Positions 18,378 through 38,152 are shown, counted from the stretch's first letter. The stretch: DNA of 52,081 nucleotides from Williamwhitmania sp. (GCA_035530955.1 DATKTT010000164.1:1-52081); one strand, 5' to 3'. Notes: a model not told the origin generated them from the sequence alone. Numbers and translations are program-made.

Positions 18378-18378
18378 G

Positions 18379-18740: not shown

Positions 18741-18741
18741 C

Positions 18742-18756
18742 TAGTAGCGGGGACAG
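18742..18756. repeat. att site (displaced tRNA 3' end), TAGTAGCGGGGACAG
   Basis: Identical to 38138-38152. Confidence 0.93.
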
Positions 18757-18870
18757 AAATTTTGACTGCAAATAAAGGAAGATAAATGCAGCTATATCCC
18801 TGTAATACAATACTGTAAATATAATATTTTTTCTCTTTTTTATTCTTTTTTTCACTCTATTGTCTTATAA

Positions 18871-18888
18871 TTGTAACTATACTGTAAC
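18871..18888. repeat. Putative integrase arm-type sites TTGTAACTATACTGTAAC
   Basis: Near-identical to TTGTAACTGTATTGTAAC at 38073-38090; paired TGTAAC 11 bp apart. Confidence 0.6.
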
Positions 18889-19096
18889 TCGATAAAAGAT
18901 TGAATATCAGACAATAATGTTTTGTTAGGTGAAATGATTGAGTTATACGAATTGTAGTTACATTTTCACACCGATTTCTTGCTTTCTGAACACAGAGTGT
19001 TTGTAATTCACAGGATTACAGACACTTGTGGTGTTAGTTCATTTTTCTGATTTTCAATCGTATAACAGTGCTATTAATTATTAAAGAGATTGAATT

Positions 19097-20245: not shown

Positions 20246-20820
20246 TACTAAATACAGTTAGAAACGACAAGGTTCCTGCACTTCGGGAATTTATTGATAA
20301 GGTACTACCCAAACATCGGGAATATTACCTAAAAGAGAATGAAAATGCCAATGAGTTGGATTTTCTGGAATCGCTGAAAGAAATATATACAATTGACTTG
20401 AGCGACTATATCCGAATTAAGGGAAACGATTTTTTTGATGACGAAATTCACAAGAACAAGAGAATTATCGAGTATCTAAACAACCAGATTCAGCAATACA
20501 AAATCGGTCAATTAATTATGGTTAGTATAAGGGATAAGAAAGACAATAAAACTCAACTAAGCATTGATAGTAGCAAGCGGGTTTTAACACTGGAAGAAGC
20601 TGCAACTTTCACAGGATTTTCTAAGTCGTACCTCTACAAACTAACATCCGGGGGAATTATTGAGTTCTCGAAGCCTAACGGTAAAACCATATTTTTTGAA
20701 AGGGAATATCTTGAAAAGTGGATGTTGTCAGGTAAATCTAAAAAGAAGGAAGATATTGAACGTGAAGCATTAAGTTATTGTACGCTAACAGCCTGGAAAG
20801 GAGGTCATTATGGAAAGTAA
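20242..20820 (+). CDS. Excisionase-like HTH_17 protein with N-terminal extension
   Basis: VLTLEEAATFTGFSKSYLYKLTS..I.FSKPNGKTIFF..LEKW; overlaps the int stop (ATGA). Confidence 0.8.
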   Translation: MILNTVRNDKVPALREFIDKVLPKHREYYLKENENANELDFLESLKEIYTIDLSDYIRIKGNDFFDDEIHKNKRIIEYLNNQIQQYKIGQLIMVSIRDKKDNKTQLSIDSSKRVLTLEEAATFTGFSKSYLYKLTSGGIIEFSKPNGKTIFFEREYLEKWMLSGKSKKKEDIEREALSYCTLTAWKGGHYGK

Positions 20821-22828: not shown

Positions 22829-22896
22829 CTGAAGTTTAAGTTAGGTTAGTTTAGTTTAGATAAGCCTATACATATAGGCTTAATCTAAACTGAAGT
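22827..22896. repeat. Ori-like inverted repeat and iterons after the rep gene
   Basis: AGTTTAGATAAGCCTATA-ca-TATAGGCTTAATCTAAACT (22853-22891), flanking AACTGAAGT direct repeats, tandem AGTT(T/A) pentamers. Confidence 0.65.
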
Positions 22897-23092
22897 AAAG
22901 TAACTGTGAACGGATTGTGAAAGAGTTGTTTTTAGGCCTTTTGGGCGAATTAAACCGATGTTTTAGGATTTAATGTTTTTCAGAAAAAACGGTCGTTTTC
23001 TTAACGAGTTGTTGTTCAGTAAAATAAATGCATTTTTCTTGGTGCTTTATTACCTAAAAAAGTATCTTAGCCACGTTTTTAATAAACAGTGT

Positions 23093-23728
23093 ATGAGAAC
23101 GATAGGATACATAAGAGTTTCGACTGAGAAGCAAGATTTGGATAAGCAGCGGTTCCTGTTACTTGAATACGCTCACAAGGAACGGATACAAATTGATGAG
23201 TTTGTTGAGGTAGAAGTATCTTCAAGAAAAAGTCAAACCGAAAGGCGAATAGATGAGTTGCTAACAAAGTTAGAGGAGGGCGATCTTTTACTCGTCATAG
23301 AATTAAGTAGGTTAGGGCGCAACATGCTTGAAACTTTAAATATTGCGAACACGCTTACAGAACGAGGAATTTCTTTGCGATGTATTCGCCAACCTGAGAT
23401 TAATACTTCCGGGGTTCACGGAAAATTGATTATGGCCATTTTTGGATACTTTGCGGAAGCAGAAAGAGACTTTATCTCGCTTCGAACAAAGCAAGGTCTG
23501 GAAGCAGCAAGGGCACAAGGCAAAAAGTTAGGTCGCCCCAAAGGATGTAAAAATAAGAAAGGTCTTGTTCTCGACCCTTTCAAGGACGAAATTATGGCTT
23601 ACATGAAGTTGGGTTTGCCAGTTGCTTCAATCAGAAAGATAATTAACGGAAAGGTTGAAAGGAAACTCTCCTACAATACCTATTCAACCTATGTGATGGG
23701 ATTAAACGGGGATGGAATTTTTATCTAA
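23093..23728 (+). CDS. Small serine recombinase (resolvase/invertase family)
   Basis: MRTIGYIRVST (catalytic Ser), ELSRLGR, AEAERDFISLRTKQGL, GKKLGRP; ATG 23093 preferred. Confidence 0.92.
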   Translation: MRTIGYIRVSTEKQDLDKQRFLLLEYAHKERIQIDEFVEVEVSSRKSQTERRIDELLTKLEEGDLLLVIELSRLGRNMLETLNIANTLTERGISLRCIRQPEINTSGVHGKLIMAIFGYFAEAERDFISLRTKQGLEAARAQGKKLGRPKGCKNKKGLVLDPFKDEIMAYMKLGLPVASIRKIINGKVERKLSYNTYSTYVMGLNGDGIFI

Positions 23729-23743
23729 CTGAAATCAAACACT

Positions 23744-24412
23744 ATGAAAGCGGGCTTTTTACAAAACTTTACACAATTCGGTGATCTCCTGAGTGATTTG
23801 GTTAACCGAACAAAACCAAAAGAAGAAAGAATGGTTCCGGAACGCCCAGTAAAGTATACTGAGGATGACAATTTTGAAGGGATACAGGAGATTTTACTCC
23901 TGAAAATGGCATTGGAATACTCCGATGATGTGGTATTGAAAGAAGAAACGGGAAATATTACCCGGGTATCTGATGAAGAAAGGACTTTGCAGTTTCAAAG
24001 GAATCAGCACACCATTAAACAGGCATTGGAAGCCTATATCTCGGTTCATGGGAAAATGCCAAGCCAAGCAACTTTAGCAAAACTGACAGGTTTTTCAAGC
24101 CCCACCATTTACGCACACTTTCGGGAAGGGGCATTGAATTTGAAACTCAGGGAGGAAATGGCAAAGTTGAAGCTGGTCAGTTCGAACTTATTTGCAAAGT
24201 TGTATCAGCTTGCAATGGATGGAGATAAACAGGCAATTAAGATGGTTTTTGATATACTGGCCTTAGGTCAGAAGATGCAAGCAGGAACGCAAAGTAACTA
24301 CATTCAGGTTAACAATCTGAAAATACAAAACCACAACCTTGATAGGCTAACCTCAAGAACAAAAAAGAAAATTGAAAGGTTAATCAGAAAGGATTTAAGA
24401 CTTGAAGATTAA
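23744..24412 (+). CDS. HTH-containing hypothetical protein, weakly terminase-small-subunit-like
   Basis: HTH MPSQATLAKLTGFSSPTIYAHF followed by LYQLAMDGDKQAIKM. Confidence 0.5.
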   Translation: MKAGFLQNFTQFGDLLSDLVNRTKPKEERMVPERPVKYTEDDNFEGIQEILLLKMALEYSDDVVLKEETGNITRVSDEERTLQFQRNQHTIKQALEAYISVHGKMPSQATLAKLTGFSSPTIYAHFREGALNLKLREEMAKLKLVSSNLFAKLYQLAMDGDKQAIKMVFDILALGQKMQAGTQSNYIQVNNLKIQNHNLDRLTSRTKKKIERLIRKDLRLED

Positions 24413-24413
24413 C

Positions 24414-24635
24414 CTACTCCTTGAAATCGACAAGATCAGACAAGCTAATTTCTAGAGCTACACTAATTCTATGTAATAGCCAAAGAGTACAATTAGTTCT
24501 CCCTTTCTCAATCCTCCTTAATGCGCTATCCTCAATATCCAATTTACGAGCCAGTTCGATTTGCTTCAAATCTTTAGCCTCTCGCAGTTTAACGATTCTT
24601 TTGCCCAGCTGTATTTGAATCTCCTCTTTGGTCAT
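24414..24635 (-). CDS. XRE-family HTH regulator (R-M controller-protein-like)
   Basis: LGKRIVKLRE..LKQIELA...RIEKGRTN.TL..L.RIS.ALEI; ATG 24635 preferred. Confidence 0.88.
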   Translation of the reverse strand: MTKEEIQIQLGKRIVKLREAKDLKQIELARKLDIEDSALRRIEKGRTNCTLWLLHRISVALEISLSDLVDFKE

Positions 24636-24687
24636 TAATGGATATAGATTGACCAAACAAGGTTCTAATATTTGGACAAACTATTCA

Positions 24688-24701
24688 GAACATATATGTT
24701 C
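24688..24701. promoter_or_regulatory. Palindromic operator GAACATATATGTTC
   Basis: Perfect 14-bp palindrome between the divergent XRE gene and the lipoprotein gene. Confidence 0.6.
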
Positions 24702-24778
24702 GGATTGTTGTAATATTTTATTATTTTAGTAGTCTATTATTGTAAGTCGAGACTGTTAAAACCGCAAAACTTGATACC

Positions 24779-25201
24779 ATGAAAAGGATAACACTTTTAT
24801 TTTCCGTATTAATTATTGGATTACTTTTTGGCTGTACAGCTGGTTCAACAAAGGAAGATAAACCAGTTACTAATGAACAAAAGAAAGAGGTGTTAAGGTA
24901 TTTAATGAGCGGAATTTGGGTAAATGAGTATAACCTTACCGCTGAAATTGACCTTGTGCAAGAAAGACCATTCTGGAAGGATAAGAATGGTAACATTTAC
25001 TATCTTGAATTAGTTGCCTATGATTTGGATAACTTAACCATAATTGCAAAAGAAAGTAACAGCTCTGCAAGGTCAAATGGTGTAACCTTGCGTTTAATAA
25101 GGTTAGATAATGACAGTTATGCACTAACTTGGAAGTATGATAGGGGTAAATTGCTCTTTTGCAACTTCGTAAGAAAGCTTGACAGATATATGGATAAATA
25201 A
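24779..25201 (+). CDS. Hypothetical lipoprotein
   Basis: MKRITLLFSVLIIGLLFG-C lipobox. Confidence 0.7.
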   Translation: MKRITLLFSVLIIGLLFGCTAGSTKEDKPVTNEQKKEVLRYLMSGIWVNEYNLTAEIDLVQERPFWKDKNGNIYYLELVAYDLDNLTIIAKESNSSARSNGVTLRLIRLDNDSYALTWKYDRGKLLFCNFVRKLDRYMDK

Positions 25202-25265
25202 GGAATAGAATAACTTTATTAAGCCCTCAACGTGCCATTGCTTAAGTTTTTTTTAAATTATAGAC

Positions 25266-25715
25266 ATGAACAGCTGTAAGCCATTCAGAGAATTAAAATC
25301 TGCCGAAACTTGTGTAATTTGTGGGAGGTCTCGGGTAGAGTCTGGGATCATGATAGTATCCCAGAAAGCAAGGGGTCTCGGCTTTTCGGATACACCTATC
25401 GGAGGAGGTGGCAAGAAAAAGCAGTATAGAAGCATACCCCTCAATGAAGGCAGAATTGAGTTTATGGTTTTCTGGGGAGAGGTTGGGTTCTGGTCTCAGA
25501 CATCTATGGAAAAAGCGATAGAGATGCATCACAATAATTTGCACCCTTGGTTTTGTTCTTATTGTGGAAATAGAACATGTTCGATTTGTGGTGCACCTTT
25601 GAAATCACCTGTCGGCTCTGACTATTTAACAATAAAAGGTGAAATGTTTCACAACCCCATTCTGGGGGTAAAAATACCATGTTCCAATTTGAAATGTAAA
25701 TCCAATCAATATTAA
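25266..25715 (+). CDS. Hypothetical Cys-rich (zinc-finger-like) protein
   Basis: CVICG, CSYCG, CSICG and CSNLKC motifs; co-oriented with neighbours. Confidence 0.5.
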   Translation: MNSCKPFRELKSAETCVICGRSRVESGIMIVSQKARGLGFSDTPIGGGGKKKQYRSIPLNEGRIEFMVFWGEVGFWSQTSMEKAIEMHHNNLHPWFCSYCGNRTCSICGAPLKSPVGSDYLTIKGEMFHNPILGVKIPCSNLKCKSNQY

Positions 25716-25739
25716 CGGAATTAATCTAATCTTACTGAA

Positions 25740-27434
25740 ATGAATAAAATACTAATACTTGGCCTAATTTGTTTGAGTTTGAATACCTACTCACAAACCC
25801 AAGAGTATTCAGGGACATATAAAGGAAAGAAAACATCCGGGAAGGCTTTATACACCTACATTCAGCAAAGTGATAGCAGGGTTTTTGATGGCATCTTTCG
25901 TTACAAGTCAGAATACCTCACAATATCTGGACATTTCAAGGACAACCTGAAGACTGGTCTTTGGGAAATGACCAACACAATGAAAACAGATTACGTTTGC
26001 AAAAATTGCTATAACTCCGTGAAAGGGGGGTATGTAAATGGGTTATTGAGTGGAGAATGGATTTATCAAATCCATAGCGAAGAGAATGCTTATAATGCAA
26101 ATGATTTAACTAACCCGCAGAAAGTCAAAAAAGCCGATATAATATATAGAGTTAATTTTTCTAATGGCAAATTTTCAGGAGTATTTGACACAAGAGGAGC
26201 AAAAGGGGCTTTCAATGAAAATGGTTTGATAAATGGGCCGTGGAAAGTAGTTGATAGTGATGGTAATGTTATCAATTATGAATTTTCTAACGGAGTCTTA
26301 ATCAAATATACCAAAACGAATTATTCAACTGGTGATGTTCTAGAGAAATGGTCAAACCTTTATGATATAGAAAAGATTAGGTCAAACTTGGATACCAATA
26401 CAAATATTTCCCTTGTGGATGGTCAGTTTTATAGGTTAGATCGTCCAAATACTAATACTGAGGAGAGTAATTTCCCTTATAAATTGGATAATCTATTTGA
26501 GGCTATTAATTTTTGGTTTGATTATCAGGGGTTTGAGTATTTATTTGAGATTGAAAGGGGAAGCAAGCCGCCTAAAGCAGATTATTATATTCAGGTGGAA
26601 GTATTAAAAAAGGAGACAGCAGAAAAATTAATTGCGAATAGCAATAATCATTTGTTTGTTGCTTATTTAAGGGAAAAGAAACAGGAAGAAGAGCGTGAGG
26701 AACAAAGGAAAATTGAAGAACTTTCAAAATATGGCCCGTTAGATGTAGTGAGGACTTCACTTCCCCTAGGGGCAAAAATAACGATAGCTAAAAACGCTGT
26801 GTTTAGCATTATACTCAAAAATGAGGGAGGAAGAACTTTAAGTCATGTGAGATGCACTGTCTCAGGAGAAAGAAATGGTTTTGTAACAAGAAATAATATA
26901 GCATATTTTGATACTATTGCACCACAGCAAGAGGTAGAAATTAAGGATTTCTCCGTGTTTGTACCCGGTAACTATAAGAGTGGAGATACATTGTTTTTCA
27001 AGATTAAGATTGATAATTCGGCGAGAGCCATGGAATCTAAATTTCATATTATTGTTGGCACACAGAACTTAAAAATAGTTGGATGTCCTTTCGAAATCAG
27101 ATGGAAACCGTATTTGAATTCTCGATGTGATTTTAAAAAAGGAGGAAAAATGGAATGTTGGGTTAAAAATAATTCTGAATTCTCGTTTAAGAATTTAACT
27201 TTTACATTGCAAACTTATGATGGCATTTTGTTGCCAAATCGTTTTAACATACCAGTTATTGATTCAGGGCAGGAAATTGAATTGTTTAAGGCTGGGGATG
27301 ATTATGCTTTTGAAATCCAGTCAAATAGAAAGTTGATTAAAGTTAATTTTACCCTAATGAATAATGAACTTCAATGTTCGAAAACAATTGAAATAACTGA
27401 ATACTCGCCAAAAACTTCAATGAAACAGAAATAA
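25740..27434 (+). CDS. Secreted protein with MORN/YwqK-like repeats, coiled coil and C-terminal beta-sandwich domains
   Basis: Signal peptide; G.F.D..K.G.W / G.Y.NG...G.W repeats; EKKQEEEREEQRKIEE; Ig/CARDB-like I.LKNEGG..L..V. Confidence 0.6.
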   Translation: MNKILILGLICLSLNTYSQTQEYSGTYKGKKTSGKALYTYIQQSDSRVFDGIFRYKSEYLTISGHFKDNLKTGLWEMTNTMKTDYVCKNCYNSVKGGYVNGLLSGEWIYQIHSEENAYNANDLTNPQKVKKADIIYRVNFSNGKFSGVFDTRGAKGAFNENGLINGPWKVVDSDGNVINYEFSNGVLIKYTKTNYSTGDVLEKWSNLYDIEKIRSNLDTNTNISLVDGQFYRLDRPNTNTEESNFPYKLDNLFEAINFWFDYQGFEYLFEIERGSKPPKADYYIQVEVLKKETAEKLIANSNNHLFVAYLREKKQEEEREEQRKIEELSKYGPLDVVRTSLPLGAKITIAKNAVFSIILKNEGGRTLSHVRCTVSGERNGFVTRNNIAYFDTIAPQQEVEIKDFSVFVPGNYKSGDTLFFKIKIDNSARAMESKFHIIVGTQNLKIVGCPFEIRWKPYLNSRCDFKKGGKMECWVKNNSEFSFKNLTFTLQTYDGILLPNRFNIPVIDSGQEIELFKAGDDYAFEIQSNRKLIKVNFTLMNNELQCSKTIEITEYSPKTSMKQK

Positions 27435-27861
27435 CCAGGAGAGAATGTTTATTTAAAGGTCGAAATTTCAGTTCCGCTGCTGCCTAATGGTTTTTATTGG
27501 GTCGGGTAGAGAAAGTTTGACATAATTATCGATAACAGGCCGAATTTCATTCCTTATTGTTTCCTTAGTTTTCCTTTTATATTTTTACATGAACACTCAG
27601 AATAGAAAAAAGGAACACACTAATGTGTTGACTTTGTTTGACTATTTGTAGGGTGCATGTTTTTTTCCTGTAATTTCCCTGAAATTAGCGTAACGAAAAG
27701 TGAGAATCCTACGTACCTAAACGATACCAGTTTATACGGTATTGGGATGAAACAGAGACAGAACTTTTTGCTCCTCGCCTAAAACTTTCAATCTGTCAGA
27801 ATTTTATTCCCTTATGATAAATTTTAAAAGCATAAGAATCTGAAATTGACCTAAGATTTCT

Positions 27862-27869
27862 TATTTTTG
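27862..27869 (+). promoter_or_regulatory. Sigma-A -7 box (TATTTTTG) for the hsdR operon
   Basis: TAnnTTTG 24 nt before ATG 27894. Confidence 0.5.
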
Positions 27870-27893
27870 AAAGAAACGTTTTTTACTGGGTCA

Positions 27894-30275
27894 ATGATAG
27901 ATAAGAAAAGTTTATCCGAAAGGGATATTTGTACGAAATATATTACCCCTGCAATAGAAAATTCTGCGTGGAATAAACAAACGCAGTTGCGTGAGGAAGT
28001 TACTTTTACTGATGGGAAGATTTATGTTAAAGGTAAATTGACAGCGAGAGGTAAAAGAAAAAGGGCGGACTATATTTTATACTATAAACCGAACATACCT
28101 GTTGCTATTATAGAGGCGAAAGACAATAACCATTCGGTCAGGTCAGGAATGCAACAGGCTTTGGAGTATGCTAGAATTCTGGACATCCCTTGTGTTTTCA
28201 GTAGCAATGGGGATGGTTTTTTATTTCACGACCGAACAAATACTAATAATATTGAAATTGAAATCGGTTTGAACGAGTTTCCCTCACCTCAACAACTCTG
28301 GGAAAAGTATAAGCGTTACAAGGGTATTGTAAGCCCCGAAGCCGAAAGAATTGCATCTCAGGACTATTTTTTTGATGGTAGTAGTCGTCTCCCCAGATAT
28401 TATCAGCAAATAGCTATTAACCGAACTGTTGAAGCCATTGCAAGGGGGCAGAACAGAATCTTACTGGTAATGGCGACTGGTACTGGAAAAACTTATACCG
28501 CCTTTCAGATTATCCATCGCCTATGGAAAAGTGGTGCTAAGAAAAGAATCCTTTTTCTAGTAGATAGAAACGCATTGATTGACCAAACAAAAAGGGGCGA
28601 CTTCAAACATTTTAAGGATAAAATGACGGTGGTCAAACATCGTATGATCGACAAAAGTTACGAAGTTTATTTGGCTTTGTATCAGGGTTTGTCTGGTGCT
28701 GATGAAGAAGCAAACGCCTATAAGCAGTTTTCACGGGAGTTTTTCGACTTGATTGTTATTGATGAGTGTCATAGAGGAAGTGCAAAAGAAGATAGTGCAT
28801 GGCATGAAATTCTAACCTATTTTGGAAAGGCTACGCATATTGGTCTTACAGCCACACCAAAGGAAACAGAGGAAGTATCGAATATTGGATATTTTGGAGA
28901 TCCAATATATACTTACTCATTAAAACAGGGAATAGATGATGGTTTTCTTGCGCCGTACCGAGTGGTTCGGGTTAACTTGAATATTGATGTTGAAGGTTGG
29001 CGACCCGAACAAGGGAAAACAGATAAAAACGGGGCTGAGGTGCAAGACAGGGTTTATAACCGAAAGGATTTTGACCGAAATATTGTGATTGATGAACGAA
29101 CAGAAACCGTTGCTAAAAAGTTAACGGAGTTTCTCAATGGTTCGGACCGTTTTGCAAAGACAATAGTTTTCTGCACCGATATTGACCACGCTGAAAGAAT
29201 GCGAACAGCCATTGCAAACATCAATGCTGATTTGGTGACTGAGAATTATAAATATGTAATGCAGATTACCGGAGATAATGACGAAGGGAAACGAGAGCTG
29301 GATAATTTCATTAGCCCAGAAGAAGTTTATCCTGTTATTGCAACCACTTCAGAATTAATGACTACTGGAGTTGATGCCCAAACTTGTAAGGTTATTGTAT
29401 TGGATTCGGAAATAAAATCGATAACAAAGTTTAAGCAGATAGTTGGTAGGGGTACACGTATAAATGAAGAATTTGGTAAGATGTATTTTACAATTCTCGA
29501 CTTTCGTAATGTTACCGATTTGTTTGCCGATGAGGAATTCGATGGTGAACCAATTCGCATTAAACCAATGTCGGAGGAGGATGATTTATCGGGTATCATT
29601 GATGAGGAAGAAACGGACTCAACTCCAATTATAGATGAAGAAACAGATGAAGAAATATTTATAGATCTTCCCGAACCTTCTTTACCACCAACACCGCCCT
29701 TGCCACCAAGGGAAAAGGTGTATGTGAATGGTGTTGATGTATCTGTATTGATTAGCCGTGAAGTGTATTTCGATACTAACGGTAAACCGATAACCACAAG
29801 CCTTAAAGACTATACCAAAGAAATTATCAAGGGGCAGTTTGCCTCATTGGATGATTTTTTAAATAGGTGGAACAGTTCAGATAAAAAGGGAGCTATTATT
29901 AAAGAACTGGAAGAACAGGGGGTAATGGTTGAAGCTTTAAGGGATGCCGTAAACCGTGAAGTGGATTTGTTCGACCTTATTTGTCATGTTGCTTATGACA
30001 TGCCACCCTTAACAAGGGTAGAACGGGCAAATAATGTTAAGAAGAGAAATTACTTTACCAAATATGGTGAACAATCTCGAAAGGTTTTGGAAGCATTACT
30101 GGATAAATATGCTGATGAAGGTATTACAAATATCGAAAGCATGGATGTACTCAAAGTAAAGCCGCTTACCGATTATGGTTCTCCGGTGGAGATTATACAG
30201 GAATTCGGCAGCAAAGACAATTATTTACAAGCAGTTAAAGAATTGGAAATTGAACTATATAAAACAGTTGCATAA
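27894..30275 (+). CDS. hsdR: Type I restriction endonuclease subunit R (EcoAI/EcoEI-like)
   Basis: SERDICTKYITPA, ADYIL..IEAK nuclease, MATGTGKT, DECHRG, GLTATP, QIVGRGTR, EcoEI_R_C-like tail. Confidence 0.96.
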   Translation: MIDKKSLSERDICTKYITPAIENSAWNKQTQLREEVTFTDGKIYVKGKLTARGKRKRADYILYYKPNIPVAIIEAKDNNHSVRSGMQQALEYARILDIPCVFSSNGDGFLFHDRTNTNNIEIEIGLNEFPSPQQLWEKYKRYKGIVSPEAERIASQDYFFDGSSRLPRYYQQIAINRTVEAIARGQNRILLVMATGTGKTYTAFQIIHRLWKSGAKKRILFLVDRNALIDQTKRGDFKHFKDKMTVVKHRMIDKSYEVYLALYQGLSGADEEANAYKQFSREFFDLIVIDECHRGSAKEDSAWHEILTYFGKATHIGLTATPKETEEVSNIGYFGDPIYTYSLKQGIDDGFLAPYRVVRVNLNIDVEGWRPEQGKTDKNGAEVQDRVYNRKDFDRNIVIDERTETVAKKLTEFLNGSDRFAKTIVFCTDIDHAERMRTAIANINADLVTENYKYVMQITGDNDEGKRELDNFISPEEVYPVIATTSELMTTGVDAQTCKVIVLDSEIKSITKFKQIVGRGTRINEEFGKMYFTILDFRNVTDLFADEEFDGEPIRIKPMSEEDDLSGIIDEEETDSTPIIDEETDEEIFIDLPEPSLPPTPPLPPREKVYVNGVDVSVLISREVYFDTNGKPITTSLKDYTKEIIKGQFASLDDFLNRWNSSDKKGAIIKELEEQGVMVEALRDAVNREVDLFDLICHVAYDMPPLTRVERANNVKKRNYFTKYGEQSRKVLEALLDKYADEGITNIESMDVLKVKPLTDYGSPVEIIQEFGSKDNYLQAVKELEIELYKTVA

Positions 30276-30278
30276 GAA

Positions 30279-30926
30279 ATGGATAAAACTACACTTTTAG
30301 ACCAACTATTTATAACCGCTTTGAAAAATGTTGATCAAAGTTATTACTCTACTGTGTATCAAAATATTGAAGTCTTTAAGCAGGAATTAAAGTCAAGAGC
30401 AGGACAATATACTAATGATACTTTCGAAAGGTATGGCGAAAGGGTGTTCTGTTATGAATTGTATCATCAACTCAGAATAGGGATTGACGAGATAAGAAAA
30501 AATTTTCCTGATTTTTTAACAGGGGCTTTATTACAAGGAGAAGTTAAAAAGATGATGATTACTGGTTTGCTCAAACGTTTACACTTAAATCCTTTGCAAG
30601 GTGAAATAGTACCAGATTTTCTTATTCATTCCCCTAGTTCATCAAAGGCTCATTATTGCGCTGTTGAGGTAAAGTGTATTAACGATTTATCTGAAGAAGC
30701 ATTTATGTCGGATGTTTCGAAATTGGCTGACTTAATTACTAATTTCAATTATGAACAAGGTTATTTTATTACTGTCAATTCAGACATTGAATATACTCGG
30801 GAGCTATTAGAAGCAACTGAGTGTATGATATATAATACTAGGGGTGCAGATAAGGTTAAAATTATCTGTAAACCAAATCAAAAAACAGAAGCAATTATAA
30901 GAAGATTATCGCCATGTCAAATTTAA
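30279..30926 (+). CDS. Putative PD-(D/E)XK nuclease-fold protein inserted in the hsd operon
   Basis: ERVFCYELYHQL..GE..VPDFLIH..AVEVK..D..KL; 3 nt after hsdR, overlaps hsdM by 13 nt. Confidence 0.65.
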   Translation: MDKTTLLDQLFITALKNVDQSYYSTVYQNIEVFKQELKSRAGQYTNDTFERYGERVFCYELYHQLRIGIDEIRKNFPDFLTGALLQGEVKKMMITGLLKRLHLNPLQGEIVPDFLIHSPSSSKAHYCAVEVKCINDLSEEAFMSDVSKLADLITNFNYEQGYFITVNSDIEYTRELLEATECMIYNTRGADKVKIICKPNQKTEAIIRRLSPCQI

Positions 30927-32350
30927 AAGGATTAATAGACAGCATACGAAAAATAATGTGGCAGGACACTGGTCTGAATGGAGATGCACAGCGCATTGAG
31001 CAATTGGGGTGGATGTTATTTTTCAAGATATTTTCAGACAAAGACAAGGAACTGGAATTACTGGACGATAACTATAAAAGCCCAATACCTGATGAACTAC
31101 ATTGGGATGCTTGGGCGGCTAATGACGAAGGTATTACTGGCGATGAGTTACAGGAATTTGTTGATCGCAAATTATTTCAAACACTTAGGAACTTACAGAT
31201 TGCACCCTCCAACGATGTATCTTACAAACGGGCTTTAATAGTTCGTGAAGTATTCGAAGGGAATAACAACTATATGAAAAGCGGTATCAATATTCGTAAG
31301 GTATTGAACAAGCTAAATGAAATAGATTTTAATATTGCGAAAGATAGACACGCTTTTGGTGAACTGTACGAAACCATTTTAAAGGAACTGCAAAGCGCTG
31401 GGAAAAGTGGTGAATTCTATACACCACGTGCAATTACTGAGTTGATTTGCGAGATTGTAGATCCAAAACTGGGTGAAAAGATACTCGACCCTAGTTGTGG
31501 TACTGGGGGGTATTTAACCGCAGCAATTGAACATCTAAAGAAACAGGCAAATAGTGTAGAAGAGCGCCAACGCATTGCAGAAAATATTGAAGGTTGGGAA
31601 TACAAGCCCCTTCCATATCTTTTGGCAACAACCAACTTGATATTGCACGATATTGAAGTGCCTAAGATTTATTTTCGTGATTCACTCGACCAACCCTTGA
31701 GCAATTATACCGAAAAGAACAGGGTAAATGTTATACTGGCAAACCCACCTTTTGGGGGTATTGTGGCGAACAATAATGAGAACAACTTTCCTCAGAATTT
31801 CCGCACAAAAGAAAGTGCCGATTTATTTCTGGTCTTAATGATTCACCTGCTCAAAAAAGATGGGAGGGCAGGTATTGTACTGCCAGACGGTTCGCTTACT
31901 GGCGACGGTATAAAGCAAAGGGTAAGACAACGATTATTGGAAGAATGTAACCTACACACAATTATTCGTTTGCCTAACTCTGTATTTCAGCCTTATGCAA
32001 CAGTGGCAACTAACTTATTGTTTTTCAATAAGGGAGAAAAGACAAAAGAAGTCTGGTACTATGAACACCGTTTGCCCGGTGGGCAAAAAGCCTACAACAA
32101 AACAAACCCTATAAAATTAAAGGAGTTTGACCCGATAAAAAAGTGGTGGAATAATCGGGAAGAATCCGAAGTAAGTTGGAAGGTTGACATACAAACCATT
32201 ATTGACCGTAACTATGATTTAGATATTAAGAATCCGAACAAGAAGGAAGAAATTATTGAACATACGAGTACTGAACTTTTGGACATGCTCGAAGCCTCTT
32301 TTGAAAAAAGTACCAGTTTGCTGGGTAAGATTAAGGAGGCAATTAAATGA
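30914..32350 (+). CDS. hsdM: Type I m6A methyltransferase subunit M
   Basis: GEFYTPR, DPSCGTGG (motif I), NPPF (motif IV), GRAGIVLPDG. Confidence 0.97.
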   Translation: MSNLKGLIDSIRKIMWQDTGLNGDAQRIEQLGWMLFFKIFSDKDKELELLDDNYKSPIPDELHWDAWAANDEGITGDELQEFVDRKLFQTLRNLQIAPSNDVSYKRALIVREVFEGNNNYMKSGINIRKVLNKLNEIDFNIAKDRHAFGELYETILKELQSAGKSGEFYTPRAITELICEIVDPKLGEKILDPSCGTGGYLTAAIEHLKKQANSVEERQRIAENIEGWEYKPLPYLLATTNLILHDIEVPKIYFRDSLDQPLSNYTEKNRVNVILANPPFGGIVANNNENNFPQNFRTKESADLFLVLMIHLLKKDGRAGIVLPDGSLTGDGIKQRVRQRLLEECNLHTIIRLPNSVFQPYATVATNLLFFNKGEKTKEVWYYEHRLPGGQKAYNKTNPIKLKEFDPIKKWWNNREESEVSWKVDIQTIIDRNYDLDIKNPNKKEEIIEHTSTELLDMLEASFEKSTSLLGKIKEAIK

Positions 32351-33816
32351 GTATAAGCATTAAATATGTTCCGCTTTCATTTATTAATACTGATGATGAG
32401 GTATTAAAGCAGATTAAGAATTCGGTTTTATTCAGTTACCTGTTGAGTAAACATGAAGAAACTACGCTTGAACATTATTTAGAATCCACGCAATATGGAT
32501 ATACTGCTTCTGCTCAAAAATCGGGTAGCCATAGACTTGTCCGAATTACTGACATTAGAAATGGTGGAGTTGACTGGGAGAATGTCCCTTATTGCGATTG
32601 TGATAGAGAGGATAATTACTTATTGAAGCAGAATGATATTTTAATTGCTCGTACAGGTGGTACAACTGGTAAAAGTTTTATAGTTAATAAAGTTCCTAAT
32701 AATTCAGTTTATGCAAGCTATTTGATTCGATTAAGATTAAAGAATGGGGTTAATATTGATTTTATAAACGCATTTTTAAACTCCTATGTTTTTTGGAGTC
32801 AGATAGTAGAAATGAAATCGGGTTCGGCAATGCCGAATGTAAATGCTGAAAAACTTAAAACCTTACGGTTACCAAAGTGTGATAGTGATATTCAGAAAGA
32901 ACTTAGTAAAGCAGCATTAGGTGAATCAATGAGTAGTGAATATGTAGGTGTTTTTGATAAAGTGAAATCAATTGAAGGTCTCTACAATAGTCATATTGGG
33001 GTTACAACTGAACTAACCCATCAACTTGATTTGATTAAGCAACTACGACAAGCATTTTTGCGTGAAGCCATGCAGGGTAAACTTGTACAACAAGACACAA
33101 ATGATGAATCTGCAAGCCAACTACTTGAAAAAATAATAGAAGAAAAAGAGCGATTGATTAAGGAAAAGAAAATAAGTAAAGATAAACCACTACCGCCTAT
33201 TAAGCTCGACGAAATACCTTTTGAAATTCCAGAAAATTGGACATGGTGTCGTCTGGGGGCAATAACTACTTATGGAACCTGCCCAAAAGCTGAGCCAGAA
33301 GATATAAGAGAGAATACTTGGGTGTTAGATTTAGAAGATATTGAAAAAGACACTTCTATGTTACTCGGTAAATTAAGGTTTAAGGAAAGAAAATCACTAA
33401 GTACTAAAAGTGTTTTTAAGAAAGGAGAGGTACTTTATTCCAAGTTACGACCATATTTGGACAAGGTTATTGTTGCCGATGAAGATGGTGTATGCACCAC
33501 AGAAATACTCCCTCTAAAATGTCTTGCTGGAATGAATCCCTATTTTTTTAGATATTTGTTGAAAAGGACAGATTTTTTAAACTATGTAAATAGTGTGACA
33601 AAAGGAATGAAAATGCCCAGATTAGGTACTAAAGAAGGCGTACTTGCATTAATGCCTTTAGCACCAATTAACGAACAACAGCGAATTGTCGCAAAACTGG
33701 ATGAACTTATGAAGTTTTGCGATGAACTGGAAGAAAGCATAAAGGGCAGTCAGCAACAAAACGAAATGCTTTTGCAACAGGTTTTAAGGGAAGCGTTAGA
33801 ACCCAATAAATTATAG
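32347..33816 (+). CDS. hsdS: Type I specificity subunit S (two TRDs)
   Basis: TRD1 (YGY..RITDI..ARTGGTTGK), spacer AMQGKLVQQD..PFEIPENW, TRD2 (SKLRPYL), EQQRIV. Confidence 0.94.
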   Translation: MSISIKYVPLSFINTDDEVLKQIKNSVLFSYLLSKHEETTLEHYLESTQYGYTASAQKSGSHRLVRITDIRNGGVDWENVPYCDCDREDNYLLKQNDILIARTGGTTGKSFIVNKVPNNSVYASYLIRLRLKNGVNIDFINAFLNSYVFWSQIVEMKSGSAMPNVNAEKLKTLRLPKCDSDIQKELSKAALGESMSSEYVGVFDKVKSIEGLYNSHIGVTTELTHQLDLIKQLRQAFLREAMQGKLVQQDTNDESASQLLEKIIEEKERLIKEKKISKDKPLPPIKLDEIPFEIPENWTWCRLGAITTYGTCPKAEPEDIRENTWVLDLEDIEKDTSMLLGKLRFKERKSLSTKSVFKKGEVLYSKLRPYLDKVIVADEDGVCTTEILPLKCLAGMNPYFFRYLLKRTDFLNYVNSVTKGMKMPRLGTKEGVLALMPLAPINEQQRIVAKLDELMKFCDELEESIKGSQQQNEMLLQQVLREALEPNKL

Positions 33817-33837
33817 TTTGAAAATAACAATACCAAT

Positions 33838-35697
33838 ATGAGAATTAATCTTAAACAAGCTGTTTCGCATTTCTATGTTAACCCTACACTTGAATTGGTT
33901 CTCATAGAAGCTATAGCAAATTCAATTGACGCAGAAGCAACAAAAGTTGAAATTGAAATCTCAATAGAAGAATTTAGCAAGCCGAAGACCTTAAATTTCA
34001 CTGTGAAGGATAATGGAGTTGGATTTACAAATGAGCGATTTGAAAAGTTTTCTAAACTTCTTGAGGCTGAAGAAGACGATCACAAAGGATTAGGGAGATT
34101 GGTATTTCTTAGTTACTTTAAAGATGTTGAAATAGTAAGTAAATACGAAAATAAACAGCGCACTTTTAAGTATAATTTTGAATTTGATGAAAAATCAAGG
34201 GTTGCGAATATAGAAGAAGGTATACAAGAAACGAAGTTATCCTTTAAAAATTATTTTAAATCGAAAATCCGCTCTCACGATACATTAAGACCTGTCATAC
34301 TGAAAAAGACATTGCTACAGGAGTTTTATCCCCGTCTTTATTTGATGAAACAGGAAGGGAAAGAACTTTCAATTTTTATCAGTCTAAGTGTTGATAAACC
34401 AGATAGTCAGTATATGTTTGTTTCAGACAAACAACAAATCTCTTTGACTGATTTACTTGAGTTAAAAATAGAGAAGATAGAAAATTCTGGCTTAGAACTG
34501 TTTGATCATACAGAATTACACTATTCTATAAAGAAAGCCCTTAATGAAAAGACAATAATTACAGCACTTTGTATTGACGGGAGAACGTATAACCTAGACA
34601 TTATATCTGATGAAAACATACCTTTCGGATACGAAATAATTTTTCTGCTCCATTCATCCTTTTTTAAAGGAAAAGTTAATGCTTCTCGACAAGAGTTGAC
34701 TTTTGATGAACACACAAAAAAAACAGTAATCAGGTTGTTTCGAAATAAGGTTCAGGAAGTACTTTCTAAGGAAATACCTGTGATAATTGAAAGAAATACT
34801 CAAACTAAAGAATCCTTAGCGAATACTTACCCTCACTTGCTTGGTTTTTTTGATATACAAAATATTGGGTTTATTAAAAAAGAGGATTCTATAAAAAAGG
34901 CACAAGAAAGATTTTTTAAGGCTCAAAGGGATGTTTTGGAAGCAAACGATCTTTCCGATGAAACATATATGAAGTCTTTAGAGATGTCGTCCCGTGCATT
35001 AACTGAATATATTCTTTACAGGCAAATTACGATAAACAAACTAAAAGAAATTGATAAAAACAATGATGAAGCCGATATACATAATTTGATTGTTCCGAAA
35101 GGTAGAATACTAAAAAGTGAGGGCTTAGTAAATGATTTATATAGCAATAATGCTTGGCTACTTGATGATAAATACATGACTTACAATACTATTTTGAGTG
35201 ATAAGGTCATGTCAAGAGTGATTAAAGAAATTGCTGGAGAAAATGAAATTGGAGGAAAAGATAATACTGAACCTGACATAGTTCTTATTTTTTCAAATGA
35301 TCCTGATAAAAGCGAGAAGGTAGATGTTGTAATTATAGAGCTAAAAAAGCGAGGCGTAAAACTCGAAGAAAATGTTGCGGCAATTGTTCAACTTCAAACA
35401 CGAGCTACAAAACTAATGCAACTTTATCCTAATAAGATTCAAAGGATATGGTTTTATGCAATCGTTGAGTTTAATAATGACTTCAAATTATATCTCGAAA
35501 ATAATAGATATACTTCACTGTTTTCAAAAGACATAATGTATTACAATGAATATGACATTAAGACTTCATTAGAACAGTTAAATACAGCGAGAGTTGGTAT
35601 TTATGTATTATCGCTTGATGCATTTATTAGTGATGCTGATGCAAGAAACTCTACATTACTGGCAGTTTTGAAAGAACATTTTAAGGGTAAAGAATAA
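33838..35697 (+). CDS. GHKL (MutL/MORC-like) ATPase fused to C-terminal PD-(D/E)XK nuclease
   Basis: EAIANSIDA, DNGVGF, KGLGR; C-terminal EADIHNLI..WLLDD..EPDIV..IIELKK..Q. Confidence 0.8.
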   Translation: MRINLKQAVSHFYVNPTLELVLIEAIANSIDAEATKVEIEISIEEFSKPKTLNFTVKDNGVGFTNERFEKFSKLLEAEEDDHKGLGRLVFLSYFKDVEIVSKYENKQRTFKYNFEFDEKSRVANIEEGIQETKLSFKNYFKSKIRSHDTLRPVILKKTLLQEFYPRLYLMKQEGKELSIFISLSVDKPDSQYMFVSDKQQISLTDLLELKIEKIENSGLELFDHTELHYSIKKALNEKTIITALCIDGRTYNLDIISDENIPFGYEIIFLLHSSFFKGKVNASRQELTFDEHTKKTVIRLFRNKVQEVLSKEIPVIIERNTQTKESLANTYPHLLGFFDIQNIGFIKKEDSIKKAQERFFKAQRDVLEANDLSDETYMKSLEMSSRALTEYILYRQITINKLKEIDKNNDEADIHNLIVPKGRILKSEGLVNDLYSNNAWLLDDKYMTYNTILSDKVMSRVIKEIAGENEIGGKDNTEPDIVLIFSNDPDKSEKVDVVIIELKKRGVKLEENVAAIVQLQTRATKLMQLYPNKIQRIWFYAIVEFNNDFKLYLENNRYTSLFSKDIMYYNEYDIKTSLEQLNTARVGIYVLSLDAFISDADARNSTLLAVLKEHFKGKE

Positions 35698-35717
35698 AAA
35701 TTAATCTAAAAAAGGTC

Positions 35718-35732
35718 ATTCCTAACTCGACG
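35718..35732. repeat. 15-bp direct repeat ATTCCTAACTCGACG, left of the kinase-STAS-PIN cassette
   Basis: Identical to 37738-37752. Confidence 0.8.
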
Positions 35733-35835
35733 TTTATCGACTGCTTTTGAATGGTGTTTGGCTACATTTTGGGATATAAAACGGACAAAATAATGAATAA
35801 GTAAGTTTAAAAGATGTTTAACTGTCAGTTATAAA

Positions 35836-36705
35836 ATGAGTTCAAATCGAGAATATACAATTACTGCAAGAAATCAGATTGTTGGTACTAGTATAAATGG
35901 TATGCTTAGTTTGATTAATTATTATCACTACGCGAAGCAATATCGGAATTGTTGGATTAACTTGAATTTAGATGGTGTTAATTTTATTGATGCGAACTTA
36001 TCTGCTTTTCTTTACAGCATAGTGTATGACTTGAAGAATAATTTTGGAGTGAGTACATTTATCGACTTCAAAAGCATTGGCAAGGATTTGAATGTATTAA
36101 TGAGAAATGGATTTACTAACCATGTAGCAGGCAATGGTTATCAATTTAAACCTTACGATGAAAGAGATACTACTATTCCACTAATGGTTTTTAACCAAAA
36201 AAACGTTGATGATTATTGTGACTACATTGAAAGGGATTTTTTACATCAAAGAGGATTGCGAAATATCCGTTTTAATGATAAGGATAGAATTATAGCAAGC
36301 TATATTGAAATATTTGAAAATGTAGGATTACATGCTAATACAAATGACCCTGTTTTTGTTTGTGGACAATATTTTCCTAAACAAGGGGAATTGAAATTTA
36401 CTTTGGTTGACCTCGGAGATGGATTTTTGAAGAAGATAGCAGAATATACTAAAGGTGATGAAAACATTACTACGGCATCTGATGCTATTCATTGGGCTAT
36501 TGCTGGTCATTCAACCAAGATTGGTGCACCTGGGGGAACAGGTCTAAGAGATATTTTTAGATTTTGCACACAAACTGGTGGGTCTTTGCATATAATGTCG
36601 GATGATTGTTATTATAATCTAACCAACACGACAACACACACGTATAAATTACTAAAGCAATATAAAGGGGCAACAATACATTTAATTTTTAGATTCCTTC
36701 TTTAA
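35836..36705 (+). CDS. STAS-like + HATPase_c (anti-sigma-type kinase fold) protein
   Basis: N-terminal LNLDGVNFIDA (STAS-like); EIFENVGLHA, VDLGDGF, HSTK..GGTGL, GATI; no HisKA domain. Confidence 0.78.
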   Translation: MSSNREYTITARNQIVGTSINGMLSLINYYHYAKQYRNCWINLNLDGVNFIDANLSAFLYSIVYDLKNNFGVSTFIDFKSIGKDLNVLMRNGFTNHVAGNGYQFKPYDERDTTIPLMVFNQKNVDDYCDYIERDFLHQRGLRNIRFNDKDRIIASYIEIFENVGLHANTNDPVFVCGQYFPKQGELKFTLVDLGDGFLKKIAEYTKGDENITTASDAIHWAIAGHSTKIGAPGGTGLRDIFRFCTQTGGSLHIMSDDCYYNLTNTTTHTYKLLKQYKGATIHLIFRFLL

Positions 36706-36739
36706 GTTTTGTATTTGGTTTAATAATTGAGTAAATCAC

Positions 36740-36747
36740 TATATTTG
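36740..36747 (+). promoter_or_regulatory. Internal sigma-A -7 box (TATATTTG) upstream of STAS-PIN
   Basis: TAnnTTTG 12 nt before ATG 36760; TTTG at 36714-36717 upstream. Confidence 0.5.
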
Positions 36748-36759
36748 AGGCTCTAAATT

Positions 36760-37098
36760 ATGATTACATTGAAAATTGTTGACATAATTGGTTCAAAAAA
36801 TGCTGTTACTCATGCGTTTGGAGTAAAAGTTTTTGATGCAATCTCTAAGCACTTTGCTAATGGTGAAAAGGTTTTTTTGTCTTTTCAAGGCGTTAAGAAT
36901 GTAACCTCTGGATTTGCCAATGGTTCAATCGGGAAAATCTATTCAGAATTTAAAGAAGCTTCGGAATTATTGACTATTGGTGGGCTTGAAGGAAAAACCG
37001 TTTGGATTGAAAAGATAGAGAACGCTAAACAACTTGGTTCTAATCCTCAAATTGCTAAGGTGCAAAATAATGCAATTTATGAATTACTACAGTCTTAG
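36760..37098 (+). CDS. STAS-like (DUF4325) protein
   Basis: G..VF..I......V.LSFQGV..VTSGFAN..IG.IY pattern, 112 aa. Confidence 0.82.
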   Translation: MITLKIVDIIGSKNAVTHAFGVKVFDAISKHFANGEKVFLSFQGVKNVTSGFANGSIGKIYSEFKEASELLTIGGLEGKTVWIEKIENAKQLGSNPQIAKVQNNAIYELLQS

Positions 37099-37103
37099 TC
37101 GTT

Positions 37104-37727
37104 ATGCCCTATTTAATTCATGACATAAAGAACGTTGCACCTGAAGATCATCCTTTATATTTCTTTGATGCTAATGTATGGATCGCTGCTTTGAAATATT
37201 ATAGTGGTGGAAAACAAAATGAGTATGAATCGCCATATCAGTCTTTCTTTGAGGTTGTTGTTGAATTGAATGAAACACATGACCCTGAAATATTAAAGAG
37301 GCTAAAGAATAAGCCCAAGATAGTTTTAACCAGTTTGGTTCTTTCAGAAATAATAAATGCTTATATGCGTAAAGTTGCCATGCGAAATTATTTTGGCAAT
37401 GGTGATGAGTATAGAAGGTATGATTTTAAAAGAGACTATAGAGACAAGACAGATTCCGACTATAAAGCCAAGCTTAAAGATTTGTGTACTGATATTGATA
37501 GTTTGAGCGATTATGCAGTCTTAATGGACGATGATTTTAAGGCTATATATTCTGCATCAACGCTTGGGAACTTATATAACTACGACCTTGATTTTAACGA
37601 TTTTTATTACGGTGAGTTCTTGAAAAAATACAAATTACCATTGGTGACACATGATAAAGATTGTAAATTTGAAAATGTAGTTACTATTACTGCTCAAGAA
37701 CGACTTCTTAAAATATCAGATATTTAG
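37104..37727 (+). CDS. PIN-domain ribonuclease (putative toxin)
   Basis: Acidic catalytic set FFDANVW, VLSEIIN, DFND, LVTHDKD. Confidence 0.85.
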   Translation: MPYLIHDIKNVAPEDHPLYFFDANVWIAALKYYSGGKQNEYESPYQSFFEVVVELNETHDPEILKRLKNKPKIVLTSLVLSEIINAYMRKVAMRNYFGNGDEYRRYDFKRDYRDKTDSDYKAKLKDLCTDIDSLSDYAVLMDDDFKAIYSASTLGNLYNYDLDFNDFYYGEFLKKYKLPLVTHDKDCKFENVVTITAQERLLKISDI

Positions 37728-37737
37728 CCTTTAACTT

Positions 37738-37752
37738 ATTCCTAACTCGACG
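37738..37752. repeat. 15-bp direct repeat ATTCCTAACTCGACG, right of the cassette
   Basis: Identical to 35718-35732. Confidence 0.8.
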
Positions 37753-38072
37753 ATTCAACGAAATACTTATGAATAGTATTCCAGCATCACTTAATTGAAA
37801 TAACTGCGACAAGTCGTTTATTTTTCGCTTTTCAGTTCGTATAATAAAGTGAATAAGGGATAAATAACGGCCTATTTCCTTTGCGATGGCATTAAAAATG
37901 CCATAAGTCAATTTTTACTTGTTTGTCTTATATGAAGACAGCTACTTTACGAAGTGTGAAGGGGCTTTTTTCTGCCTTTTTGAATTAAAGTGGCTGAAAG
38001 AATAAAAGAAGATGACTTGTAAAAGAGATTTTACTTTCCCTTGCTCTTTTTGGGTTATTCTTTTCACGTTTC

Positions 38073-38090
38073 TTGTAACTGTATTGTAAC
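38073..38090. repeat. Putative integrase arm-type sites TTGTAACTGTATTGTAAC
   Basis: Matches 18871-18888. Confidence 0.6.
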
Positions 38091-38100
38091 CCTTAAAAGG

Positions 38101-38136
38101 AAAGACCCTTGAGAAACAGTGTTCTCAAGGGTCTTT
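38101..38136 (-). terminator. Element-supplied hairpin/terminator downstream of tRNA-fMet
   Basis: AAAGACCCTTGAGAA-acagtg-TTCTCAAGGGTCTTT stem abutting the att site. Confidence 0.7.
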
Positions 38137-38137
38137 T

Positions 38138-38152
38138 TAGTAGCGGGGACAG
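38138..38152. repeat. att site overlapping the tRNA 3' end
   Basis: TAGTAGCGGGGACAG, identical to 18742-18756. Confidence 0.93.

What the first reader, a model, noticed from the sequence alone, without database searches (positions are those of the whole stretch)
35718..37752. Kinase-STAS-PIN triad: candidate partner-switch-controlled RNase (phage defence or three-part TA), packaged as a discrete cassette
Seen: three co-oriented genes at the end of a defence cluster. (i) A STAS-like domain fused to an HATPase with no HisKA domain (E..N..H, DxGxG, GGTGL). (ii) A stand-alone DUF4325-type STAS protein with a candidate phosphoacceptor in VTSGF. (iii) A PIN domain with a complete acidic active site, starting 5 nt after the STAS stop. 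Established: HATPase Ser/Thr kinases with STAS partners form partner switches (SpoIIAB/SpoIIAA, RsbW/RsbV), and PIN domains are toxic RNases (VapC). Inference: here the switch controls an RNase instead of a sigma factor, so a phage signal that changes STAS phosphorylation would release PIN and cause abortive infection. I cannot confirm from the sequence whether this system already has a name.
Basis: partly seen in the sequence, partly recalled or inferred. Interest (0 to 1): 0.8.

Follow-up and report, generated by a model that had tools for sequence, protein, structure and literature searches.

The report
VapKSC kinase-switched anti-phage RNase operon

Summary
The three genes are real and intact, and the mechanism proposed is essentially correct, but the system has a name: VapKSC (Chambers et al., EMBO J 2026, PMC13373217). 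The STAS and PIN proteins each have one significant PDB sequence match, Escherichia VapS and VapC of 9Z7O (profile E 6.6e-19 and 1.6e-11). The residues mutated in that paper have counterparts here: VapS S50, VapC D22, VapK F50 and N162. A predicted VapS-VapC complex scores 0.83 against 0.00 for the best control, with S50 in the interface. 44 of 49 loci found by PIN similarity carry full-length kinase and STAS genes upstream. The triad ends a 19.4-kb island at tRNA-Met. Two small additions: a Bacteroidota-type -7 promoter element lies between vapK and vapS in 32 of 40 loci (background 11-18%), and a 15-bp direct repeat brackets this copy only. Phage defence, phosphorylation and ssDNA sensing are inferred for this copy, not tested. 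The scan earlier reported related two-gene HTH-kinase/STAS pairs on other DNA, one of which led me to the paper; no look-alike of this kinase was indexed.

The parts
35836..36705 (+). vapK: STAS-like domain (about 1-100) fused to a SpoIIAB-like GHKL Ser/Thr kinase (about 110-289); F50 = predicted ssDNA-stacking aromatic, N162 = N-box
   Evidence: 28% identical over 250 aa to the Deinococcus gobiensis I-0 kinase; motifs compared by eye with Appendix Table S2
36760..37098 (+). vapS: DUF4325 STAS antitoxin with short C-terminal helix; S50 = predicted phosphoacceptor (VapS S48)
37104..37727 (+). vapC: PIN-domain RNase toxin; D22 (= Escherichia D28), E82, D163, D166, D184, D186
36740..36747 (+). 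Bacteroidota housekeeping-sigma -7 element (TAnnTTTG type), 12 nt before the vapS start; likely internal promoter for vapS-vapC
   Evidence: consensus from PMC6847099
35718..35732 (+). left copy of a 15-bp exact direct repeat
37738..37752 (+). right copy of the 15-bp direct repeat, 10 nt after the vapC stop
18742..38152 (.). context: 19.4-kb low-GC (35% vs 44%) island bounded by a 15-bp duplication of the tRNA-Met 3' end (18742 and 38138); tyrosine integrase, HTH_17, AAA_25, resolvase, type I R-M, GHKL ATPase, then vapKSC
   Evidence: empty site in same-genus genome G001

Best explanation
This is an intact vapK-vapS-vapC operon, a member of the published VapKSC family, in which VapS likely binds and blocks the VapC RNase until VapK, predicted to be switched on by single-stranded DNA, phosphorylates VapS S50, which would free VapC to cut RNA and stop phage growth. 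Shown here: gene order, homology to the crystallised VapS and VapC, conservation of every residue mutated in the paper. Predicted here: the VapS-VapC interface with S50 buried and the VapS tail near the active site. Shown only for the Escherichia copy: toxicity, neutralisation, loss of binding by S48E, about 2-log protection against phage Bas42. Inferred even there: phosphorylation by VapK and ssDNA activation (by analogy with CapK and from the F54A and S48A mutants). vapS-vapC likely have their own constitutive promoter, while vapK may be read from upstream.
For: Window STAS protein: only significant PDB match is VapS 9z7o_A (E 6.3e-8; family profile E 6.6e-19, while CapS 9z72 scores only E 0.63). 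PIN family profile: only significant match is VapC 9z7o_C over profile positions 3-187 of 191 (E 1.6e-11). S50 aligns to VapS S48; that column is S or T in 49 of 50 rows. Kinase position 50 is W or F in 110 of 126 rows, N162 and H166 in 126 of 126, matching CapK W68/VapK F54 and N160. All three genes match the kinase-STAS-PIN triad on a D. gobiensis I-0 plasmid, a strain listed in the paper's Dataset EV3. Predicted VapS-VapC complex: 0.83 vs best of 3 controls 0.00; the mark was reached by 116 of 157 solved complexes and 2 of 215 mismatched pairs; runs agree in at least 88% of contacts, partner pLDDT at least 91; interface holds VapS 47-51 and 101-112 and VapC 24-25, 183-184. Co-occurrence 44 of 49. 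20 of 48 loci have a PADLOC hit (E<=1e-40) among the nearest flanking genes scanned.
Against: Nothing was assayed for this copy. The complex prediction may pass by likeness to the solved 9Z7O complex. The Escherichia VapK was compared by eye only; the paper's residue numbers run 5 higher than my count in its Table S2. The window's PIN model resembles generic VapC proteins in Foldseek (best E 7.8e-4; 9Z7O not among the listed matches), and the narrower PIN profile reached 9Z7O VapC only weakly (E 2.6e-4). The basic residues predicted to contact ssDNA (K180, K181) are only partly kept: K182 here (K in 38 of 126 rows), Q183. In the paper VapK activity could not be tested, protection is shown for one phage, and 64% of loci have no PADLOC neighbour. 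My neighbour count has no background control and includes unspecific hits (HNH, SNF2 helicase).
Confidence: 0.88

Rival explanations
1. It is a VapKSC module whose main role is a general DNA-damage growth arrest, or stabilising the island that carries it; phage protection would be a by-product.
For: The paper itself says the line between defence and stress response is fuzzy for VapKSC; 186 of 289 published loci lack a PADLOC neighbour; 28 of 48 loci here had no hit among the flanking genes scanned; the locus sits on an integrative island.
Against: 2-log protection against Bas42 needing all three genes' key residues; here it follows a type I R-M operon. It differs from the best reading in emphasis, not in mechanism.
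Confidence: 0.3
2. The switch is as described but the kinase's input is not ssDNA: the N-terminal STAS domain senses a phage protein or a nucleotide change.
For: ssDNA activation was shown for CapK only; for VapK it rests on a model and the F54A mutant. The predicted DNA-contacting lysines vary in this clade.
Against: The aromatic that CapK needs for ssDNA activation is kept at position 50 in 110 of 126 relatives.
Confidence: 0.15
3. VapK releases VapC by binding and sequestering VapS (classical partner switch), or phosphorylation has the opposite sign, rather than phosphorylation breaking VapS-VapC.
For: In SpoIIAB/SpoIIAA and RsbW/RsbV the unphosphorylated STAS protein is the one bound by the kinase (established knowledge, recalled); the kinase domain is closest in fold to SpoIIAB.
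Against: S48E abolishes VapC binding and neutralisation and S48A abolishes defence in the Escherichia system; S50 is in the predicted interface here.
Confidence: 0.07
4. This copy is a silent or decayed passenger on the island.
For: No TAnnTTTG element in the 90 nt before vapK here.
Against: All three frames are full length with all conserved residues; genes are co-oriented with the upstream operon; a -7 element precedes vapS.
Confidence: 0.07

Closest known systems
VapKSC (VapK-VapS-VapC; Chambers et al., EMBO J 2026, PMC13373217; PDB 9Z7O)
   Same: Gene order, domain architecture, sizes, homology of VapS and VapC to the crystallised proteins, phosphoacceptor, catalytic Asp, N-box Asn, ssDNA-site aromatic, frequent R-M neighbours; the paper's list includes many Bacteroidota.
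   Different: Distant in sequence (28% kinase identity to the Deinococcus member); untested copy; second predicted DNA-contact lysine is Gln; an internal -7 promoter element and a flanking 15-bp repeat that I did not find described in the passages read.
CapK/CapS (same paper)
   Same: STAS-GHKL kinase plus STAS substrate with a conserved Ser; promoter between the kinase and STAS genes.
   Different: CapK has an N-terminal HTH and CapS a wHTH (184 aa repressor); both are absent here, and CapS scores only E 0.63 against the STAS profile. Output is transcription, not an RNase.
PIN.4 cluster of Matelska et al. 2017 (PMC5499597)
   Same: [quoted passage not shown]
   Different: Function unknown there; kinase not mentioned (0 occurrences of STAS, HATPase, histidine kinase). 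Membership of this protein in PIN.4 was not tested with their model.
SpoIIAB/SpoIIAA and RsbW/RsbV partner switches
   Same: GHKL Ser kinase fold (Z 13.4 to SpoIIAB, 9.5 to RsbW) and STAS substrate.
   Different: No sigma factor or PP2C phosphatase gene in the operon; the kinase has its own STAS domain; the STAS partner, not the kinase, holds the output protein.
VapBC type II toxin-antitoxin systems; PIN defence systems DS-3 and DS-5 (PMC13092281)
   Same: PIN/VapC RNase effector.
   Different: No DNA-binding VapB; DS-3 is a single protein and DS-5 has a DUF5830/AcrIF4-like partner; neither has a kinase or STAS in the passages read.

Membership tests
VapKSC | Three-gene operon in the order kinase, STAS, PIN | tested here: met
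   same order in 44 of 49 PIN-selected loci with full-length kinase
VapKSC | VapK = STAS + GHKL kinase without the CapK HTH | tested here: met
   model and VIA-align: STAS 2-98, SpoIIAB-like 111-289
VapKSC | Kinase homologous to a listed VapK | tested here: met
   28% over 250 aa, blastp E 5e-31, to the D. gobiensis I-0 plasmid kinase followed by STAS and PIN genes; strain is in Dataset EV3, IMG ids not cross-checked. Escherichia VapK compared by eye only
VapKSC | VapS = STAS plus short C-terminal region, homologous to Escherichia VapS | tested here: met
   9z7o_A E 6.3e-8 single sequence, 6.6e-19 profile; 112 aa vs 116 aa
VapKSC | Conserved Ser/Thr phosphoacceptor (S48) | tested here: met
   S50 aligns to it; S/T in 49 of 50 rows
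VapKSC | VapC homologous to Escherichia VapC with catalytic Asp (D28) | tested here: met
   profile E 1.6e-11, full length; D22 invariant in 31 of 31
VapKSC | Aromatic at the predicted ssDNA site (F54) and N-box Asn (N160) | tested here: met
   F50 (W/F in 110 of 126) and N162 (126 of 126); equivalence set by eye from Table S2 with an offset of 5
VapKSC | Basic pair at the predicted ssDNA groove (K180, K181) | tested here: inconclusive
   K182 kept, Q183 not; both columns variable; the paper did not test them by mutation in the sections read
VapKSC | VapS binds VapC with the Ser buried and the tail near the active site | tested here: inconclusive
   prediction supports it (0.83 vs 0.00) but may reflect likeness to 9Z7O; not a measurement
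VapKSC | VapC toxicity, neutralisation by VapS, phosphorylation-dependent release, phage protection | not testable with these tools
   needs bench work
CapKS | HTH on the kinase and wHTH on the STAS protein | tested here: not met
   kinase model is filled by STAS + GHKL; STAS protein is 112 aa, no room for a wHTH; CapS match E 0.63
Integron gene cassette | attC hairpins at the boundaries and an integron integrase | tested here: not met
   boundary strands fold no better than shuffles (z 0.48, 0.16, -1.35, 0.24, 0.70); no TIGR02249 match over cut-off in the 88.6%-complete own genome
PIN.4 (Matelska 2017) | VapC-like PIN coupled to a DUF4325 gene; match to their cluster model | not tested
   description fits; their model was not run

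The most novel reading that the evidence does not exclude
In Bacteroidota, vapKSC is two transcription units: a conserved housekeeping promoter between vapK and vapS drives the antitoxin-toxin pair constitutively, while the trigger kinase is read from whatever defence operon the module has landed behind (often type I or III R-M), tying toxin release to that operon's expression and DNA cutting; this copy was inserted as one unit at a 15-bp repeat, and kinase-less vapSC pairs (L043) exist.
Probability: 0.4. Interest if true: 0.4.

Novelty: new member of a known kind. Interest (0 to 1): 0.2.

Why it matters
Modest. The system was named, crystallised and shown to block a phage in 2026. This copy adds a Bacteroidota-type member far from the one tested system, whose VapK was insoluble; a second kinase could allow the missing test of ssDNA-activated VapS phosphorylation and of the RNA target. 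The conserved internal promoter element suggests how a TA system with no DNA-binding antitoxin is expressed. The PADLOC 2.0.0 library has no model for any of the three genes, so such loci are missed by that release.

Tried and rejected
Integron cassette: TAAC/GTTA-like words at the left boundary suggested attC, but folding was no better than shuffles and no integron integrase was found. The 15-bp repeat as a recurrent element: a longer degenerate pattern gave 1 match in metagenome contigs, inside an unrelated reading frame; with up to 3 mismatches the window count (2) is within chance (25 of 100 shuffles), so only the exactness and position are informative; in 44 relatives the longest shared flank word was 6-12 nt. 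Excised or empty cassette: no joint in contigs of runs X1 (possibly the source) and X2; contigs show presence, not absence. No RNA holder listed. Viral contigs: no PIN relative confirmed. Kinase profile against PDB sequences: nothing significant. Foldseek of the PIN model did not list 9Z7O. The 619-aa ATPase and 215-aa ORF have no homologue at E<=1e-5 among the ORFs of the 49 loci, so they are not fixed partners. DISARM membership from the DrmA hit (E 1.7e-8, 231 of 1750 profile positions) rejected as a shared domain. Literature searches: DUF4325 (3 papers), STAS/PIN/defence/HATPase (6, missed the VapKSC paper), VapK/VapS/CapK/CapS, vapKSC phrases (only the paper and its preprint).

Full report
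Observation. The three ORFs are present, co-oriented and uninterrupted: 35836-36705 (289 aa), 36760-37098 (112 aa), 37104-37727 (207 aa), with gaps of 54 and 5 nt. Pfam names the second DUF4325 (E 4.9e-11) and the third PIN (E 1.3e-5) and finds nothing in the first. An AlphaFold2 model of the first (pLDDT 94.5, 126-row alignment) aligns to SpoIIAB over residues 111-289 (Z 13.4, rmsd 2.5) and to STAS anti-anti-sigma factors over 2-98 (Z 8.9); Foldseek also lists SpoIIAB among GHKL proteins. The PIN model is VapC-like and six acidic residues are invariant in 31 of 31 rows. Each gene is single-copy in the assembly.

Setting. GC falls from 44% to 35% between about 18.7 and 38.1 kb. A tRNA-Met gene lies at 38140-38213 on the minus strand and 15 nt of its 3' end are repeated at 18742. 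Same-genus genome G001 joins the tRNA directly to the sequence left of 18756, an empty site. The island holds a tyrosine integrase, HTH_17, AAA_25 and resolvase genes, a type I R-M operon and a 619-aa GHKL ATPase, and ends with the triad. The host is inferred to be Bacteroidota from the nearest relatives' record titles.

Relatives. A scan of species-representative genomes with the PIN alignment gave 49 loci. With a kinase profile from an independent library (992 proteins at E<=0.001) and a STAS profile seeded from the window but trained on these loci, 47 of 49 have a kinase hit and 48 of 49 a STAS hit; 44 of 49 have full-length kinase and STAS directly upstream of the PIN gene (one of them, L047, with a split PIN). 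The other five: two kinases cut by contig ends (L001, L015), one fragmented tandem (L044), one without kinase (L043), one with neither (L046). Of 127 flanking genes chosen, 121 from 48 loci were scanned (6 long ones dropped for size); 20 of 48 loci have a PADLOC hit at E<=1e-40, mostly R-M and PDC candidates. No background control was run for that count.

What it is. An earlier scan note (e1-1115669) named Chambers et al. 2026 (PMC13373217). I read its abstract, introduction, sections 11-14, 17, 18, 28, 33, term passages, the Appendix PDF and all of Dataset EV3; sections 8-10 only as passages. It describes vapKSC: a STAS-GHKL kinase, a STAS protein with a short tail and a VapC-like PIN, in 289 loci, 103 near a PADLOC hit. 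For the Escherichia copy it shows VapC toxicity (lost in D28A), neutralisation by VapS (lost in S48E and tail deletion), a 2:2 VapS-VapC crystal structure (9Z7O), and about 2-log protection against Bas42, lost in D28A, S48A and VapK F54A. VapK activity itself could not be tested; ssDNA activation was shown for the sister kinase CapK.

Membership. The window STAS protein's only significant PDB match is VapS (E 6.3e-8; profile 6.6e-19, CapS 0.63). The PIN profiles' only significant match is that VapC (E 2.6e-4 with 19 close rows; 1.6e-11 with 31 broader rows). S50 aligns with S48 and is S/T in 49 of 50 rows, while position 49 varies. By my count the paper's VapK F54, N160, K180, K181 are F49, N155, K175, K176 of its Table S2; by eye these match F50, N162, K182, Q183 here. 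Position 50 is W or F in 110 of 126 rows. The one plasmid record matched by the kinase is D. gobiensis I-0 P5, annotated ATP-binding, STAS-like, PIN in a row; that strain is in Dataset EV3 and all three window proteins match its three (phmmer pairwise E 5.5e-33, 1.7e-12, 1.7e-6). The predicted VapS-VapC complex scores 0.83 against 0.00 for the best of 3 controls (mark reached by 116 of 157 solved complexes and 2 of 215 mismatches; runs agree in at least 88% of contacts; partner pLDDT at least 91), with VapS 47-51 and 101-112 touching VapC, including 24-25 and 183-184 beside the catalytic acids. This repeats the published geometry but may owe to likeness with the solved complex. The PIN-DUF4325 coupling had been noted in a table row in 2017 (PMC5499597, one passage seen).

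Mechanism. Most likely as published: VapS holds VapC inactive; DNA damage during infection yields ssDNA; VapK is activated and phosphorylates S50; VapC is released and cuts rRNA or tRNA (target unknown). The adjacent type I R-M and GHKL ATPase could supply the damage signal, as the paper suggests for CapKS; that link is inference.

Small additions. (a) A TAnnTTTG word, the Bacteroidota -7 promoter element (PMC6847099, two passages seen), lies at 36740-36747. In a fixed 90-nt window at the kinase stop it occurs in 32 of 40 loci that I grouped beforehand as Bacteroidota-type (3.4 expected by shuffling; the group includes L002 and L008, whose titles name Alphaproteobacteria and Rhizobium, and unnamed L027, L040) and 0 of 7 others; L043, L044, L046 were left out. 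Background for co-oriented gene pairs: 22 of 168 (35-70 nt gaps) and 40 of 218 (71-150 nt) in the own genome, 8 of 70 in the same loci. Upstream of vapK it is found in 10 of 40 and not in this window. Kin are not independent and no transcript data exist here. The paper reports a promoter between capK and capS; in the 12 of 19 'promoter' passages shown and in section 13 I saw none for vapS. (b) The 15-bp direct repeat bracketing the triad is real and unique in the assembly, is not an attC site, is not shared by relatives and no excision was seen. It may be the footprint of a single insertion; the mechanism is unexplained.

Verdict. Observation confirmed, interpretation supported, novelty refuted: a new member of VapKSC. 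Interest 0.2.

Noticed in passing
window 33838-35697: 619-aa GHKL (HATPase_c_3) ATPase directly after hsdS, with a C-terminal PD-(D/E)xK-like motif by eye; weak match to BbrUII/HgiDII-family restriction enzyme (E 3.4e-7); atlas clusters are unnamed ATP-binding proteins. Likely a MORC-like ATPase-nuclease defence gene with no PADLOC model.
   Followed up: partly
window 30279-30926: 215-aa orphan between hsdR and hsdM, only a weak TnsA-like endonuclease hit (E 0.028); candidate nuclease in the R-M hot spot.
   Followed up: no
window 35836-36705: The kinase matches positions 36-266 of PADLOC DrmA model PDLC02567 (E 1.7e-8), hinting that some DISARM DrmA helicases carry an N-terminal STAS-GHKL domain.
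   Followed up: no
P0099, P0158: VapK-like domain in other architectures: a 568-aa protein with two matching stretches, and a 581-aa Mrr nuclease-helicase protein with the kinase-like part at its C-terminus (may be a chimeric gene call).
   Followed up: partly
L043:4682-8654: vapS-vapC pair with no kinase gene, directly behind a SNF2-type helicase.
   Followed up: partly
L044:6000-8516: Tandem, fragmented vapS-vapC copies with only kinase C-terminal remnants.
   Followed up: partly
L051:2881-4159 (Streptococcus phage Javan172): VapK-like kinase gene followed by a 345-nt hypothetical gene and no annotated PIN gene, in the lysogeny module next to the integrase; the small gene was not tested for STAS.
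   Followed up: no
window 18341-18756: A second, degenerate copy of the tRNA-Met 3' half (18374-18443) with a small GIY-YIG ORF (18439-18639, minus strand) between it and the island's left att site.
   Followed up: no
window 17274-18196: Two tandem SiaC-family phosphoprotein genes just left of the island: an unrelated host partner-switch-like system.
   Followed up: no
window 22828-22973: Inverted repeat (arms 22839-22861 and 22883-22905) between the AAA_25 and resolvase genes; possible origin or resolvase site of the island.
   Followed up: no
PMC13373217 Appendix Table S2: The VapK residue numbers in the text (F54, N160, K180, K181) are 5 higher than my count on the listed sequence.
   Followed up: yes
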